DNA of 64,000 nt from the NCBI RefSeq assembly GCF_009914755.1, contig NC_060934.1; one strand, 5' to 3'. The DNA is from the human T2T-CHM13v2.0 reference genome, Homo sapiens. The notes beneath the pieces are model-generated. The model searched no databases, was not told the DNA's origin, and was given only the letters and a program-made list of their open reading frames with translations. This document shows, in pieces, positions 6,075 to 12,799 of this stretch. Position 1 is the first letter of the stretch. Each line of letters opens with the position of its first letter. The translations under genes were made by a program, and so were the position numbers.

Positions 6075-6202
6075 CTTCACTCTGAGTACAGAAGTAAACA
6101 TTCTTGCATCTTCAGATACACCTCCGATGTAGAATTTTTTCTGAAACACTGGGGGATGATTATTTTCATCCTGAATCTCAATGTATACTTTAGCTGTATT
6201 GC
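6075..6202 (-). CDS. PCDH15: Protocadherin-15 internal coding exon (128 nt, phase 1 to 0): (S)[44 protein letters not shown]10-11 linker and start of EC11
   Basis: Acceptor tcctccag|GC, donor GAAG|gtatgc; DENNHPPVF matches the cadherin DxNDNxPxF motif; overlaps ORF track 5928..6149. Confidence 0.98.
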
Positions 6203-8160
6203 CTGGAGGACAAGAAACGATGCATTTTTTATTGGTGGTTATTCATGGGGGAAAAAATGCACTGAAGTAAATATTTGCTGCACTTTTTTTTGGAAACATT
6301 GAAAATAAATCAAAAGCCATTTCTAGATGCCATGCCTAGCACCCCCAAATTCAGGGGACACTGATAATGATGCTTCTGGTATAAAAATGTTAAGTTGCTG
6401 TTATTTCTTTTAATTACAATGTCCTGGTAGTTCACTTTACTTGATTTAATTTGGCACTAAAATACTGCACCCTGTTAATTTTAATGAAACAACTCTACTG
6501 TTCACGTTCACAAACACTTCACACACAATACCAGTTATACCAAAGGGACACAAATATATAAACCCCTTATGAAATAGTAGAAACTGCCATAAACTATTAT
6601 ATGAATATATATTTATTCTTAAGTATAAAATCAGCAATGGCATTTCTTTAGCTTAAAATTGTACAATAACTTTTATGTTTTAAGACTAAAAGTAACAGTG
6701 TTCGGGTGAGGTGTTTATTTCCACAAATGGAAAACAAGTTTTATCATGCCTTGGAAACTGTCAATGTTAGAGGCTAACATTCATTGAAAACAATGGAGCT
6801 GAAGATATGATTATGACTCATAAATGCTGCATTTTACCATTTAAATAACAGTAAATGTACCATAAATGATATGTCATCATCAAATGTTAGAACCTCCCTC
6901 AAATCATCACACCTTTAATGAGAAATGTGGTACTTGTCACTAGTCCAATAATGACCTTTTAAAAAACAATTTAATATGTATAAAAATAACTTATAAACCA
7001 AATAAAATGGGAAATAAGTGGCTATTCATTTTGTAAAAAAATAGTCAAATAAGTATTGCTAATGTATTACATAAGTCGACTTTTCTGATTCATTTCAGTT
7101 ATGAACAAACGGCAATTAACGTACATACTATTTATCAAGGATGCCCTTATTTTGGTGTTTTACCTGTGTTTAATGCCTCCTGTACAATTTTAAGTAATTA
7201 ACACCAGCCTACTTGCAGGATACATCATGGGTATACATTTGTATTTGTTGAATAAATTAATGAATGAATAGCTTGTATTAGTAAGAACTTAGAAATAGTC
7301 TTTTTTTTTTTTTTGCTTGCCCTTGGAAAGGTCAGACAGAACAGTGAGTTAACCTCAAGATTTTGCTCCTATCCTGCTGCTACTCATTCAGCTTTTCTCT
7401 GTTTGTCATCTGTGACCTGGAAGAGGTAGAATCAAGAGGAAAATCATGCTAGCGCAACAGATTAGAGAACCAACAGCGAAATAGGGCTAATAGCAGATTA
7501 TGCTTCTCTATCCTGCAGTGCCAGGGCTCTGACTTGTACCTTAGTCAGCCACCACAAATCAGAATTCACCCAAAATGAAATCATTTTTAGTTCAGTAGCA
7601 GACCACTTTTATCTCTAGAATAAAAAATGCGAACAGCTCTAAATTTAAAAATAAAAAGGAATTTTAGAATATGTCACCTTTCCAATAACTTCTTTGCACT
7701 TTCATTCAGAAACATATACAATTCAAATGTGCTATTTCTTTTCAGAACTCTTAGAGTGACAGAGGTCTCGGAAAAATACTGATGACGTATATTTTCTTCT
7801 TTAAATGGGATGAGTCATTTAAAATGTTATACAATTTGCAAAGAACAAGAACTTTGTCATGACCTGTTCCCTTACCTCCCAACCCTAACTTCATATCTGG
7901 ATGGTAACCAAATCCTACATGTCAGCCTCATAAGCAGGTAAATCATCACCTAATAAATATATCTTGTGTCATTTTTCTCTCAACTCCACAGCTGCCCATA
8001 TACTTAAGTCTGTTGTTGTCTCACCTGAGTGACTAAACGTCATCTGCTCCCCTGTCGTGTCTTTCTAATGTGTCCTGCATTCTGATATAACAAAGACATC
8101 ACAAAATACAAATAGGATACATTAAATCAAATGTTAAACCAACCACCATTCATATGTACA

Positions 8161-8468
8161 TTTTTTTCTTTTTCTTGTTTTTTGAGATGGAGTCTCCCTC
8201 TGTCGCCCAGGCTGGAGTGCAGTGGCACGATCTCGGCTCACTGTAAGCTCCACCTCCCGAGTTCATGCCATTCTCCTGCCTCAGCGTCCCTAATGGCTGT
8301 GACTACAGGCATGCGCCACCATGGCTGGCTAATTTTTTGTGTTTTTTTAGTAGAGACGGGATTTCTCCATATTGGTGAGGCTTGTCTCGAACTCCTGACC
8401 TCAGGTGATTCACCCACCTCGGCCTCCCAAAGTTCTGGGATTACAGGCATGAGCCACCATGCCTGGCC
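8161..8468 (-). mobile_element. Alu with an AluSx-like left arm and AluY/Sc-like right arm
   Basis: Full dimer plus T tail; ctcctgacctcaggtga (Sx-type) together with aagctcc...atgccattctcc (Y-type). Confidence 0.92.
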
Positions 8469-10923
8469 GACAATTCTTAAAAATACCATGTGTATATTCA
8501 TATCCATACTTATATGTATACTTTGTGCATATAAGTTTAAGATTCAAATACCAAATTGTTCCTATGAAAGCTCCTTTGATTCAGTGGCCTGTATCAGATA
8601 TTAAGTGGTTTGTGGGAAAAGGCCTATGGATAACCCAAAATATGATTATATAACCTGAACATAATGGGGAGAGATGATTATACTTAATTATAATATTTTA
8701 ATTAAATGATATTTATTTATATGAAAACTAATGACTATACAATACAAAATTCCAGAATACTTCACAACCAGCACACAAACAAAATCTCAAGAACATTGTT
8801 TAGACTTAAAAGAACTTATACATTTATTTATTTTAAAAAGCCACGATCATTTAGTTCTTTTCACAAAAGAGAAACAGTTATAATGCGATTTATAACAATA
8901 CTGTATCATGAATTTTGAAATTTATGATGTTAGCTATATAGCTAATTATGTAGGATAGTTTGTAATAGTCAACTAAAAATAAATATAAAGTTGTGAAAAA
9001 GGTGTTTTCATTAAGTTTGTGACTTAGATGTTAGAATAAAAAAAATTGTTAACTTTTATTTTCCATAATGTAAAATAGACTAGTCTTCCTTTTTTTTTGC
9101 TTCTCCCTGATAACTTTAGGCAGTTGTTATGTATCCCTCCTTTGAAATGCTATAGTGCACTAAAAATGTTTCTTTCTATAAATAACCTTTCCAGAGCTTG
9201 GTTTACATTGCATTTAGTTATAAGCATGATTTTATTCTTATTAGATTTCAATATTCTTAAAGATGGAAATTGTATCTCCTACATCTATCAGTACTATAAT
9301 GCCTCAGTTTGTAGGTAATTTTTCCGCTCAGATATTATTGTAACAAAATTTCTTAATTTTTGTTGAACAAAAAAGTTGATATTCAATTAATTTGTTAGCT
9401 TTCTTTGATTATAATCATGAGATTATGATTAACTGAAACAAAAAGTTAACTCTTAGAAGGATATGAGGGAGCTCACTAAATCAAAGTGAAGTAAGTCCAA
9501 AGAAGGCTTTTGGTACCACAAAATAATCAGGAAGTTGTAGAGCCTTTAAAGCAGCAGATGTTTGATTTTCTTGCAGATGAAATAACAGCAAACTCTCTTC
9601 TTTTATGTTATTTTACCCCACCCCTTATTCCTCTTTTTTTTTTTTTAAAGAAACAAACCAAAAAACAACCCACTAGGCTTAAGAATCATACCCTGGGGAC
9701 ACATTACCTGACTGTCCTAGTTTGGGTCATGTGCTTGCTCCTTGTCTCGGGAAGGAGAAGTCACCAGATTATCCACTTGAGAAGTCACTGGGACAATTAT
9801 AAGAAATTGTAGTGTGTCTACTTAAAGAATGTAAAATAAATGTTGGCCAGTAAGAAAAGGAAAAGCAAATAAGTATACACCTATAGTTAAATCACTAGAA
9901 CAGCGTTCTTTTTGACTTTTTTATTCATGTGTATACAATGTACATGACATCATCAATTTCCTTGGCTCACGTGCTTCCCCACTAAGGATTGTACCATGTT
10001 CTTCCACCAAATTTGGATATTGATTATTTCAAGGCAGAAGCTTGGAAGCAACTCTGATTTAAATTCTTTTAAGATAGCCTGCTTTTTATCTCCTTGAGTA
10101 CTTACAAAAACTTTTTTTCCATGTTGTATCCTTTATTTAATGTAGACATCAAACACATAACAAAAGAAAGATACTAGAAAGAGAAAGGAAAGCACAGATA
10201 GAAAAATAATGTTAAGGGAACAACGTGCGTGCCTAATATCCTAGTATTCCCCTCCAGTCTCCCTTCTGGCTCATCTAAACAATGCAAGTATTGGAAAGAG
10301 AACCACAAACAGTGAAAGAAATTACAAAGTAGGCAAAAAAGTTATTTGGAAAGTGTTTTGGTTAAGAGACATTATAATTTTTCTGTGTGCTTTGGGGCAC
10401 CCTGCCTTATTTTTCTTCCATTATTAACTTTTTTCTCCAATTTTCTATGGGACAATCTTTTCTTTGGCTAGAACTTTTGGCTTTAGTAAGCCAGAAGTTT
10501 TAAAAATGACTCCTGAGGTAAGAAAATGTGAGATACCTTCTTGCAATGTTTTAAAGAAAGAGAAAATAATACTTTTATGTAGTCAAGCTCAGGGGAAAAT
10601 GTAAGTCTTAGTATAGTTACCTCCTTGAATAGCACTTCTGTTCTATTTTAGACATTTAAACATGGTAGAAGGAGTTCAGAAGAGTGATTTTAAATACCCA
10701 TTAACCTCAACTTGACTCTATGATTTTTAAGACCAAATTTAGTTTGATTTTTCCCTTCCCTTACTTTTAATAATCAAGACTGTGATGCTAGTTTTTTCTT
10801 TTTAGGAAGGCCCTATTATCCTCAAGATGAATCCATTTCATTTATCCACATGACTAATCTAGTGCCTACACTGCACTGGATTTTCAAAGAAAGCCTTACT
10901 GAATAAGAAGCCAATGAGTTAAA

Positions 10924-11851: not shown

Positions 11852-12210
11852 TGATATGGTTTGGCTGTGTGTCCCCACCCAAATCTCATCTTGAACTATA
11901 ATCCTCACGTATCGACGGAAGAACCTGGTGGGAGGTGATCAGATCATGGGGGCAGTTTTCCCCAATGTGTTCTCATGTAGTGAGTTTGCACGAAATCCAA
12001 TGGTTTTATAAGGGGTGCTTCCCCCTACACTCCCTCTTTCCTGCTGCCTTGTGAAGAAGGTACTTGCTTCTCTTTCCCCTTCCACCATGATTACAAGTTT
12101 CCTGAGGCCTCCCCAGCCATGTGGAACTGTGAGTCAATTAAATCTCTTCTCTTTATAAATTACCCAGTCTCGGTTATTTCTTTATACCAGTGTGAAAACA
12201 GACTAATACT
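11852..12210. mobile_element. THE1/MSTA-type MaLR solo LTR
   Basis: tgatatggtttggctgtgtgtccccacccaaatctcatc ... gactaatac; perfect 5-bp TSD gtagg. Confidence 0.92.
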
Positions 12211-12658
12211 GTAGGTGTTCAATAAATGTTAAATTAAATTGTAATTGCTACCACTTCACTACTCCCAAGGGTCCTCTTAAATAAAATAAATTACTCTATT
12301 TTATTCCTGTAAATTAAATGAGGTAACAGATTTTTAAGCATTTAAAAATCAAATAACAGACACCCCCATTCCAAGACAGCTGAATAGGAACAGCTCCAGT
12401 CTGCAGCTCCCAGCGTGCTTGGCGCAGAAGACGGGTGATTTCTGCATTTCCAACTGAGGTACCTAATTCATCTCACTGGGACTGGTTGGACAGAGGGTGC
12501 AGCCCACAGAGGGCAAGCCAAAGCACGGTGGGACATCACATCACCCAGGAAGCAAAAGGGGTTGGGGGATTTCCCTTTCCTAGCCAAGGGAAGTCATGAC
12601 AGATTGTATCTGGTAAATGGGGACAGTGCCACCCAAATGCTGCGCTTTTCCAATGGTC

Positions 12659-12799
12659 TTAGCAAATGGCACACAAGGAGACTATACCCACACCTGGCTC
12701 AGTGAGTCCCATGCCCACGAAGCCTTGCTCACTGCTAGTGCAGCAGTCTGAGATCAATCTGCGAGGCAGCAGCCTGGCAGGGGGAGAGGAGTTCACCAT
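12659..12799 (-). other. L1 ORF0 homolog (46 aa, MVNSSPPARLLPRRLISDCCTSSEQGFVGMGLTEPGVGIVSLCAIC) with internal splice donor CAG|GTGTGG at 12694/12693
   Basis: Aligns by eye to recalled L1Hs ORF0 (MAGAPPPASLPPCSLISDCCASNQRDSVGVGPSEPGVG...); ATG context gcagcaATGg. Confidence 0.85.

What the first reader, a model, noticed from the sequence alone, without database searches (positions are those of the whole stretch)
6075..12799. Intronic L1 ORF0 is open and its splice donor is in frame with the next PCDH15 exon: candidate ORF0-PCDH15 fusion
Seen: the L1 is antisense to PCDH15, so its antisense promoter points down the gene. ORF0 has a strong-Kozak ATG at 12799 (gcagcaATGg) and is open for 106 nt (35 codons + 1) up to an intact donor GAGCCAG|GTGTGG at 12694/12693, i.e. 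phase 1. The next exon (6202-6075) has a phase-1 acceptor beginning GC-AAT. Splicing over a 6491-nt intron gives [55 protein letters not shown]..., continuing in the PCDH15 frame. Established: primate L1 5'UTRs carry an antisense promoter and ORF0 whose donors form fusions with nearby exons. Inference: a primate-specific short isoform lacking the signal peptide and almost all of EC1-10, but keeping EC11, the membrane-adjacent domain, TM and cytoplasmic tail. Caveats: phase match is about 1 in 3 by chance, and this older copy has lost many CpGs.
Basis: partly seen in the sequence, partly recalled or inferred. Interest (0 to 1): 0.8.

Follow-up and report, generated by a model that had tools for sequence, protein, structure and literature searches.

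The report
Old L1 relic upstream of PCDH15 exon
A decayed, roughly 25-million-year-old L1 retrotransposon in a PCDH15 intron could by sequence splice its small antisense ORF0 in frame onto the next exon, but two published screens did not report such a transcript, so it looks like an ordinary coincidence.

Summary
On the minus strand there is an ATG at 12799 in a strong context, 35 open codons, a donor CAG|GTGTGG at 12694/12693, and a phase-1 acceptor at exon 6202-6075. That exon spans the EC10/EC11 boundary of PCDH15.

The element is an L1PA6 (9.0% diverged). It has an internal deletion, an Alu-like insertion, and only 12 CpGs left in its 5'UTR.

The donor is not an "intact" inherited one. In 27 L1PA6-like copies chosen without regard to ORF0, only 6 have GT at that position and only 2 have the whole set (ATG, open frame, phase, GT). 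In 29 young copies, 28 have GT. Here the GT fits CpG decay. The second ORF0 donor, present in every other copy examined, is lost in this one.

Published screens are negative. PCDH15 does not occur in the supplements of an EST screen of 988 L1 antisense transcripts. A brain and glioma screen that queried this very L1 reported chimeras from two other PCDH15 L1s but not from this one, and found only 44 of 1509 such transcripts spliced at the 5' end.

The predicted product has no signal peptide. Verdict: a real arrangement and a known mechanism, with no evidence of use. Junction, CAGE and primate data could not be reached.

The parts
12367..17608 (+). L1PA6 retrotransposon, antisense to PCDH15. 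It is 5.2 kb long, has an internal deletion joining ORF1 to the end of the ORF2 endonuclease region, carries an Alu-like insertion, and both ORFs are broken.
   Evidence: The 5' end was read and the 3' end with its short A-run. Broken ORFs and the ORF1/ORF2 join (ORF 13689-14120) are. The RepeatMasker row L1PA6, chr10:55669296-55670941 +, repStart 5, repEnd 1670, milliDiv 90 comes from Pinson 2022 Table S1. The match of that row to this element is confirmed by the spacing of four neighbouring L1s in T2T.
12367..13380 (+). L1 5'UTR up to the ORF1 ATG at 13381. The CpG island is lost.
   Evidence: It holds 12 CpG, observed/expected 0.17, G+C 0.526. The ORF1-like ORF starts at 13381.
12659..12799 (-). 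ORF0 relic: 46 codons plus a stop when unspliced.
12797..12799 (-). ORF0 start codon, context gcagcaATGg.
   Evidence: ATG is present at this position in 25 of 27 L1PA6-like copies and 29 of 29 young copies.
12710..12712 (-). Second ATG in the ORF0 frame (codon 30), context gtgggcATGg. It would open the same fusion frame if transcription starts downstream of 12799.
12912..12914 (-). Upstream out-of-frame ATG. It opens a 59-codon ORF that overlaps the ORF0 start, and would compete if transcription starts further upstream.
12688..12696 (-). First ORF0 donor, CAG|GTGTGG, 106 nt from the ATG (phase 1). It is the only site on the minus strand between 13000 and 12300 with at least 7 of 9 matches to MAG|GTRAGT.
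   Evidence: GT is present here in 6 of 27 L1PA6-like copies and 28 of 29 young copies.
12604..12612 (-). Position of the second ORF0 donor (offset 191). It is lost here and reads CAG|ATACAA.
   Evidence: GT is present at this offset in 29 of 29 young copies and 28 of 28 covered L1PA6-like copies.
6203..12693 (-). Hypothetical intron of 6491 nt. It is part of the native 35.4-kb intron between exons 41642-41782 and 6075-6202.
   Evidence: Coordinates come and the gene table. The stretch holds 22 AATAAA/ATTAAA hexamers on the minus strand; the first, at 12305, lies just past the L1 5' end.
6075..6202 (-). PCDH15 coding exon with a phase-1 acceptor. It encodes the last strand of EC10, the linker [10 protein letters not shown] and the start of EC11.
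41642..41782 (-). Native upstream PCDH15 exon. Its last base A completes the Ser codon with GC of exon 6202.

Best explanation
This is an ordinary, long-dead L1PA6 insertion lying antisense in a PCDH15 intron.

What the sequence shows. Its antisense ORF0 relic happens to stay open for the first 35 codons. A GT has appeared at the position of the first ORF0 donor, in a pattern that fits CpG decay. The 106-nt length gives phase 1, which matches the next PCDH15 exon.

What I infer. The match is a coincidence and the fusion is only a sequence possibility. If the antisense promoter fires at all, the expected output is a rare, mostly unspliced, short read-through transcript. Such a transcript would run out of the L1 5' end and meet an AATAAA about 60 nt beyond it. 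At most a trace of spliced product would form. There is no functional primate-specific PCDH15 isoform here.
For: 1. Identity and age. RepeatMasker calls the element L1PA6 with 9.0% divergence, and the mapping to that row was confirmed. The ORFs are broken and there is an internal deletion. The 5'UTR has CpG observed/expected 0.17.

2. Base rates.
- In 27 L1PA6-like copies picked by similarity to the neighbouring stretch 12850-13100, 25 have the ATG and 14 are open in phase. Only 6 have GT at the first donor and only 2 have everything.
- The non-GT copies read GC followed by A/G and C/T variants, the pattern that CpG decay gives.
- Young copies have GT in 28 of 29 and everything in 21 of 29.
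- So the donor here is a derived chance state. The donor that all other copies share (offset 191: GT in 28 of 28 and 29 of 29) is destroyed here.

3. Published screens.
- PCDH15 gives 0 hits in the 10 supplementary files of Criscione 2016.
- Pinson 2022 used 9123 L1PA1-8 elements including this one. It found 1571 chimeras in 3 brains and 8 gliomas. Two of them are in PCDH15, from the L1PA5 at hg19 55727658 and the L1PA4 at 56274747. None comes from this L1.
- Only 44 of 1509 chimeric transcripts were spliced at the 5' end.

4. Start sites. Published antisense start sites cluster at about +450, about +400 and +200 of the L1. That is at or past the ORF0 ATG, which sits near L1 position 435, and in the +200 case past the donor as well.

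5. Product. The ORF0 part has no hydrophobic core.

6. Five L1s with an antisense promoter lie in PCDH15 and all point down the gene. Arrangements of this kind are therefore common.
Against: - The donor 9-mer CAG|GTGTGG is identical to the commonest state of the first ORF0 donor in young L1s (13 of 29). It is the only good donor-like site in the antisense 5'UTR.
- The acceptor is a constitutive PCDH15 exon with a long pyrimidine tract, and the native intron contains no annotated competing exon.
- Two ATGs in good context (12799 and 12712) open the same frame.
- Pinson 2022 states that L1PA6 is the oldest subfamily with the antisense promoter and that 13.5-20.6% of elements per subfamily gave chimeras. 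Activity of an L1PA6 is therefore not excluded.
- The screens consulted cover ESTs, brain and glioma only. They do not cover testis, ES/iPS cells, retina or inner ear at depth.
- CLIFinder looks for reads linking the L1 to adjacent sequence and may miss a rare spliced form.
- Junction databases, CAGE, the Denli 2015 tables and further supplements could not be consulted.
Confidence: 0.78

Rival explanations
1. The junction is used at a low level. In cells where old L1 antisense promoters are derepressed (ES/iPS cells, testis, tumours, DNMT-inhibited cells), or where PCDH15 is highly transcribed, some antisense transcripts start upstream of 12712 or 12799. They use the donor at 12693 and splice to exon 6202. 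The result is a rare ORF0-PCDH15 chimeric mRNA with no selected function, that is, transcriptional noise.
For: - The donor is identical to the commonest young-L1 first donor and is the only donor-like site in the antisense 5'UTR.
- The acceptor is strong and constitutive.
- L1PA6 elements do give chimeric transcripts.
- Antisense promoter activity is coupled to host-gene transcription (abstract and passages of Pinson 2022).
- Two sister L1s in PCDH15 are active.
- 42 EST-derived predicted peptides contain ORF0 fragments.
Against: - It was not seen in the EST screen or the brain and glioma screen.
- Only 2.9% of chimeric transcripts are spliced at the 5' end.
- The promoter region has decayed: CpG observed/expected is 0.17 and divergence is 9%.
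Confidence: 0.18
2. A functional, catarrhine-specific short PCDH15 isoform exists. It would consist of ORF0 (35 aa), Gly, the last 13 residues of EC10, EC11, the membrane-adjacent domain, the TM helix and the cytoplasmic tail, driven by the L1PA6 antisense promoter in a particular tissue.
For: - The frame is compatible.
- Two in-frame ATGs have good contexts.
- The retained part matches solved Protocadherin-15 chains that begin at this boundary (6c10 and 6c14). That part can therefore fold on its own.
Against: - There is no signal peptide. By inference, the extracellular part would stay cytosolic or the TM helix would have to act as an anchor after about 280 residues.
- There is no expression evidence.
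- The donor state looks like random CpG decay.
- No protein with this N-terminus turned up among the longer proteins of the 5.8-billion set: the best hit was 83% identical and none was named. This is weak evidence.
Confidence: 0.02

Closest known systems
L1 ORF0 and ORF0-exon fusion transcripts (Denli et al. 2015, Cell 163:583). I saw it only as cited and summarised in PMC4859970 (passages), PMC13517631 (passages) and PMC9396940 (passages). The paper itself is not held.
   Same: - An antisense ORF in a primate L1 5'UTR, downstream of the antisense promoter.
- An ATG in a strong context.
- A donor 106 nt from the ATG whose 9-mer equals the commonest state in young L1s.
- The next host exon lies downstream on the same strand.
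   Different: - The ORF is 46 codons here, against the 70 aa reported.
- Only one of the two donors is present.
- The GT at that donor is not the usual state in L1PA6-like copies (6 of 27).
- No transcript or protein evidence exists for this locus.
L1 antisense-promoter chimeric transcripts (LCTs): Speek 2001 (recalled; also cited), Criscione 2016 PMC4908685 (abstract, sections 6-7, supplement search) and Pinson 2022 PMC9396940 (abstract, passages, section 6, supplements 1-2).
   Same: - The L1PA6 has its 5'UTR from consensus position 5, so the promoter region at +400 to +600 is present.
[quoted passage not shown]
   Different: - This element is in the query list but not among the 1571 detected chimeras.
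- Most LCTs are unspliced, whereas the proposal needs splicing.
N-terminally shortened PCDH15 constructs used for structure work: PDB chains 6c14 and 6c10, which start at the EC11 boundary. The entry titles are recalled; the tool gives only 'Protocadherin-15'.
   Same: They start within the same exon, at the DENNHPPVF linker (query residue 13 aligns to chain residues 3-4). The domain content equals that of the proposed product.
   Different: - Those are engineered proteins, which by recall were made with a secretion signal.
- The proposed product has a 35-residue non-hydrophobic ORF0 leader instead, plus 13 residues of EC10.

Membership tests
L1PA6 (primate LINE-1 with 5'UTR) | Sequence similarity along the L1 5'UTR, ORF1 and ORF2, and classification by RepeatMasker. 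| tested here: met
   The RepeatMasker row reads L1PA6, repStart 5, milliDiv 90, and the locus mapping was confirmed. The stretch 12850-13100 is 91-93% identical to 39 other genomic copies. L1 ORF1/ORF2-like ORF fragments are present.
L1 ORF0 | An antisense ORF in the L1 5'UTR starting with an ATG in a strong context at the homologous position. | tested here: met
   The ATG at 12799 aligns with the ATG of 25 of 27 L1PA6-like copies and 29 of 29 young copies. The context has G at -3 and G at +4.
L1 ORF0 | An ORF of about 70 amino acids (length as cited in PMC4859970). | tested here: not met
   It is 46 codons here. Other copies read 80 residues or more from the same ATG.
L1 ORF0 | Two splice donors inside the ORF (as cited). 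| tested here: not met
   The first donor is present (CAG|GTGTGG at 12693). The second, at offset 191, reads CAG|ATACAA, and it also lies beyond this copy's stop.
ORF0-host exon fusion / spliced L1 chimeric transcript | A donor phase compatible with the next coding exon on the same strand. | tested here: met
   The 106 nt give phase 1, and exon 6202 has a phase-1 acceptor.
ORF0-host exon fusion / spliced L1 chimeric transcript | Transcription start in the L1 antisense promoter, upstream of the ORF0 ATG. | not testable with these tools
   No CAGE, EST or RNA-seq data for this locus could be reached. Published start sites for the family lie at about +450, +400 and +200.
ORF0-host exon fusion / spliced L1 chimeric transcript | An observed RNA junction between the L1 donor and the host exon. 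| tested here: inconclusive
   It does not appear in the two published lists that could be searched. Four full-text searches gave 0 papers. Junction databases are not available here.
PCDH15 (cadherin-related 15) exon | Identity to PCDH15 protein at an EC-EC linker. | tested here: met
   All 42 residues align to Protocadherin-15 chains, for example 6c13 at E 9.8e-28 with 40 of 42 identical to that chain by my count of the printed alignment.

The most novel reading that the evidence does not exclude
CpG decay of an L1PA6 5'UTR created a working first ORF0 donor after insertion. On this reading a catarrhine-specific alternative first exon would drive a short PCDH15. The protein would start at ATG 12799 or 12712 and carry EC11, the membrane-adjacent domain, the TM helix and the tail, but no signal peptide. 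It could act in some tissue as a modulator or decoy of the partners that bind the membrane-proximal part of PCDH15.
Probability: 0.03. Interest if true: 0.6.

Novelty: new member of a known kind. Interest (0 to 1): 0.18.

Why it matters
If the junction were used, it would be one more ORF0-host fusion. It would also be a primate-only, truncated form of a deafness and Usher-syndrome gene. That could matter for interpreting intronic variants and for isoform catalogues.

As things stand, the value of the finding is mainly cautionary. An open ORF0 with a donor in phase with the next exon is expected by chance at many intronic L1s. Five L1s with an antisense promoter point down PCDH15 alone.

A small point of wider interest concerns the donors. 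In the L1PA6-like copies sampled, the first ORF0 donor usually reads GC rather than GT. Individual old copies can acquire GT at that site in a pattern that fits CpG decay.

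Tried and rejected
- Denli 2015 is not held, so its list of ORF0 fusions and its donor positions could not be read. Donor positions were instead taken from genomic copies.
- Paper reading closed. The supplements of PMC12791003 and other stem-cell or neuronal L1 studies were therefore not searched for PCDH15, and they may bear on the claim.
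- Lanciano 2024 (PMC10879037): the supplement search found PCDH15 5 times in a file that was cut when stored. The 2 passages shown concern the L1PA3 at hg38 55601875 (locus L038 here), not this L1. Nothing was learned about methylation of this copy.
- A search of the 5.8-billion protein set for longer proteins starting with this ORF0 gave 31 hits. All look like unnamed ORF calls on L1-bearing contigs. The best is 83% identical, and none is a PCDH15-like fusion. This is weak evidence only.
- I looked for a second L1 5'UTR in the window and found none.
- I considered that the L1PA5 chimera in the PCDH15 rows of Pinson 2022 might be this element. The spacing rules it out: that L1 lies 58.3 kb higher, outside the window.
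- Conservation in other primates was not testable, because no primate genomes are held.
- Splice-site strength was judged only by matches to the recalled consensus MAG|GTRAGT and by comparison with other L1 copies. No trained splice model was available.

Full report
**1. The observation**

- The ATG is at 12799-12797 in gcagcaATGg.
- 35 codons follow, MVNSSPPARLLPRRLISDCCTSSEQGFVGMGLTEP.
- One more G comes next, then GT: CAG|GTGTGG, with the exon ending at 12694.
- Left unspliced, the frame stops after 46 codons.

The exon 6202-6075 follows a long pyrimidine tract and AG. From its third base it reads [42 protein letters not shown]. The native upstream exon ends ...TCA AAA A|gtaagt. The native junction codon is therefore AGC (Ser) and the acceptor is phase 1. 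The proposed join gives GGC (Gly) and continues in the PCDH15 frame. The hypothetical intron is 6491 nt.

**2. Which part of PCDH15**

The 42-residue exon peptide matches Protocadherin-15 chains in the PDB.
- Chains 4xhz and 5kj4 end within it, at query residue 21.
- Chains 6c10 and 6c14 begin within it, at query residue 13.
- In 6bxz the exon sits at chain residues 100-141 of 356.

This places the exon on a cadherin-repeat boundary, at the linker [10 protein letters not shown]. About one repeat lies before it in 6bxz and about 215 residues after it. The tool prints only 'Protocadherin-15'.

**3. What the repeat is**

The plus strand from about 12367 reads as an L1 5' end. An ORF1-like ORF starts at 13381. 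ORF1 and ORF2 are in pieces. One ORF (13689-14120) runs from ORF1-like into ORF2-like sequence, which shows an internal deletion. An Alu-like stretch sits near 16344-16643. The element ends at a short A-run near 17608.

Table S1 of Pinson et al. 2022 (PMC9396940, hg19) has a row L1PA6, chr10:55669296-55670941, +, repStart 5, repEnd 1670, 9.0% divergence. I tested whether that row is this element. The next four rows on the same strand (L1PA5 55727658, L1PA6 56048164, L1PA4 56274747, L1PA3 57361635) predict L1 5' ends at set distances. I found L1 5' ends in T2T at 58,325, 379,249, 606,739 and 1,693,921 bp from ours, against 58,362, 378,868, 605,451 and 1,692,339 bp in hg19. The identification holds.

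All five lie inside the PCDH15 span given in the gene table, and all are antisense to the gene. The 5'UTR of this copy keeps 12 CpGs (observed/expected 0.17). No other L1 5'UTR lies in the window.

**4. Is the open ORF0 with a donor more than chance?**

I sampled 29 genomic copies by similarity to the stretch 12850-13100. That stretch lies next to ORF0 but does not include it, so the choice does not select on ORF0 (loci L008-L036). Of these, 27 cover ORF0.

| State in the 27 L1PA6-like copies | Copies |
|---|---|
| ATG at the homologous position | 25 |
| ATG, no stop, and the same phase up to the donor position (my count from the table) | 14 |
| GT at the donor position | 6 |
| All of the above together | 2 |

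The other copies read GC (18), TC (2) or GA (1) there. Their variants of the form GC[A/G][C/T][A/G]G are the pattern that CpG decay gives.

Two more local copies agree. The second L1PA6 in PCDH15 (L039) reads CAG|GCACAG, and the L1PA5 (L006) reads CAG|GCGTGG.

Young copies differ. I sampled 29 copies 99-100% identical to the L1PA3 in PCDH15 over the same neighbouring stretch.
- All 29 have the ATG.
- 28 have GT at the first donor.
- 21 have the whole set.
- The commonest 9-mer, in 13 copies, is CAG|GTGTGG, exactly as here.

So the GT at the first ORF0 donor belongs to younger subfamilies. In this L1PA6 it is a derived state that converged on the same 9-mer.

Conversely, the second donor (191 nt from the ATG) is GT in 29 of 29 young copies and 28 of 28 covered old copies. 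Here it reads CAG|ATACAA, at 12609. It also lies beyond this copy's stop codon.

**5. Would a transcript carry the ATG and the donor?**

On the minus strand between 13000 and 12300, the site at 12693 is the only one with at least 7 of 9 matches to the recalled consensus MAG|GTRAGT. The ATGs between 13000 and 12690 are three:
- 12914, out of frame, which opens a 59-codon ORF across the ORF0 start;
- 12799, the ORF0 start;
- 12712, in frame, in the context gtgggcATGg.

Published work places antisense start sites at a 'classical +450' region and a '+200' region (Pinson 2022). It also places the primary site at about +400, just past a YY1 site at 448-453 (Criscione 2016).

In this copy the ORF0 ATG sits near L1 position 435 and the donor near 330. 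Starts at +450 would include the ATG only barely. Starts at +400 would leave only the ATG at 12712. Starts at +200 would miss the donor altogether.

An unspliced transcript would leave the L1 at about 12367 and meet an AATAAA at 12305.

**6. Published evidence on use**

Four full-text searches gave 0 papers each:
- ORF0 + PCDH15;
- antisense promoter + PCDH15 + LINE-1;
- PCDH15 + chimeric transcript + LINE-1;
- PCDH15 + transposable element + alternative promoter + isoform.

These searches cover main texts only.

Criscione 2016 reported 988 EST-supported antisense transcripts. PCDH15 does not occur in the 10 supplementary files held.

Pinson 2022 looked for chimeras from 9123 L1PA1-8 elements in 3 brains and 8 IDH-wild-type gliomas and found 1571. 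The two PCDH15 rows belong to the L1PA5 at 55727658 and the L1PA4 at 56274747. This L1PA6 was in the query list but gave none.

In the same study 13.5-20.6% of elements per subfamily gave chimeras. Only 44 of 1509 chimeras (2.9%) were spliced at the 5' end. Among recent elements with a 5'UTR that is 44 of 8744, about 0.5%, in those tissues.

Criscione 2016 found ORF0 fragments in 42 predicted peptides from 2015 ESTs. ORF0 fusions therefore exist but are a small minority.

A search for longer proteins carrying this ORF0 found only unnamed ORF calls at 83% identity or less.

**7. The product**

It would consist of ORF0 (35 aa), Gly, 13 residues of EC10, EC11, the membrane-adjacent domain, the TM helix and the tail. 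The ORF0 part has no hydrophobic core: the best 9-residue Kyte-Doolittle mean is 0.81.

I infer that about 280 residues that are normally extracellular would be made in the cytosol, unless the TM helix could act as a late anchor. That is unfavourable for so long a preceding domain. This point was not tested.

**8. Verdict**

The mechanism invoked is a known one: the L1 antisense promoter, ORF0 and its donors. But nothing beyond sequence compatibility supports use at this locus.

- The base rates are low: 2 of 27 copies for the ORF0 set, 1 in 3 for the phase, and 2.9% of chimeras spliced.
- Two screens did not report it.
- One of the two canonical donors is lost, and the other is a decay product.

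I put about 0.78 on 'ordinary decayed L1PA6, coincidental frame match, no meaningful fusion'. I put about 0.18 on rare noise-level use of the junction, and about 0.02-0.03 on a functional isoform.

**9. What remains open**

The decisive data are junction reads, capped 5' ends and primate orthologues. None could be reached with these tools. The Denli 2015 tables and several supplements could not be read either.

Noticed in passing
L006:1195-2186 (T2T chr10:54,816,694 onward, about 6.7 kb beyond the right end of the window): An L1PA5 (hg19 chr10:55727658) points down PCDH15 toward exon 62667-62555. It is listed by Pinson 2022 as producing a chimera (Id_1893, 4 reads in one sample). Its ORF0 has a stop at codon 25 and GC at the first donor. 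By my arithmetic from exon lengths, exon 62667 has a phase-0 acceptor, so no in-frame ORF0 fusion is possible there.
   Followed up: partly
L037:4111-5150 (T2T chr10:55,365,110 onward) and L038:4293-5186 (T2T chr10:56,452,292 onward): Two younger L1s in PCDH15 introns, an L1PA4 and an L1PA3, have ORF0 open to the first donor and a GT at that site (CAT|GTGCGG and CAG|GTGCGG). In the L1PA4 the ORF runs at least 80 codons. In the L1PA3 it stops at codon 61. The L1PA4 is the source of chimera Id_1895 in Pinson 2022, with reads in three samples. On base rates they are better candidates for ORF0-PCDH15 fusions than the element in the window. Their next exons and phases were not determined.
   Followed up: partly
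window 12688-12696 compared with loci L008-L036 and L041-L069: The first ORF0 donor is GT in 28 of 29 young L1 copies but in only 6 of 27 L1PA6-like copies, which mostly read GC. The second donor is GT in all copies of both groups. So the first donor seems to have entered the L1 lineage after L1PA6/L1PA5, while old copies can gain it individually in a pattern that fits CpG decay.
   Followed up: yes
window 13689-14120 (+) and 16344-16643: An ORF runs from ORF1-like sequence straight into sequence like the end of the ORF2 endonuclease region. This shows an internal deletion of about 1 kb, which fits the RepeatMasker fragment ending at repEnd 1670. An Alu-like stretch interrupts ORF2.
   Followed up: no
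window 11939-12241: Another interspersed repeat, masked at 12031-12241, lies just 5' of the L1. It is therefore the first sequence that an unspliced antisense transcript would enter. Its family was not determined.
   Followed up: no
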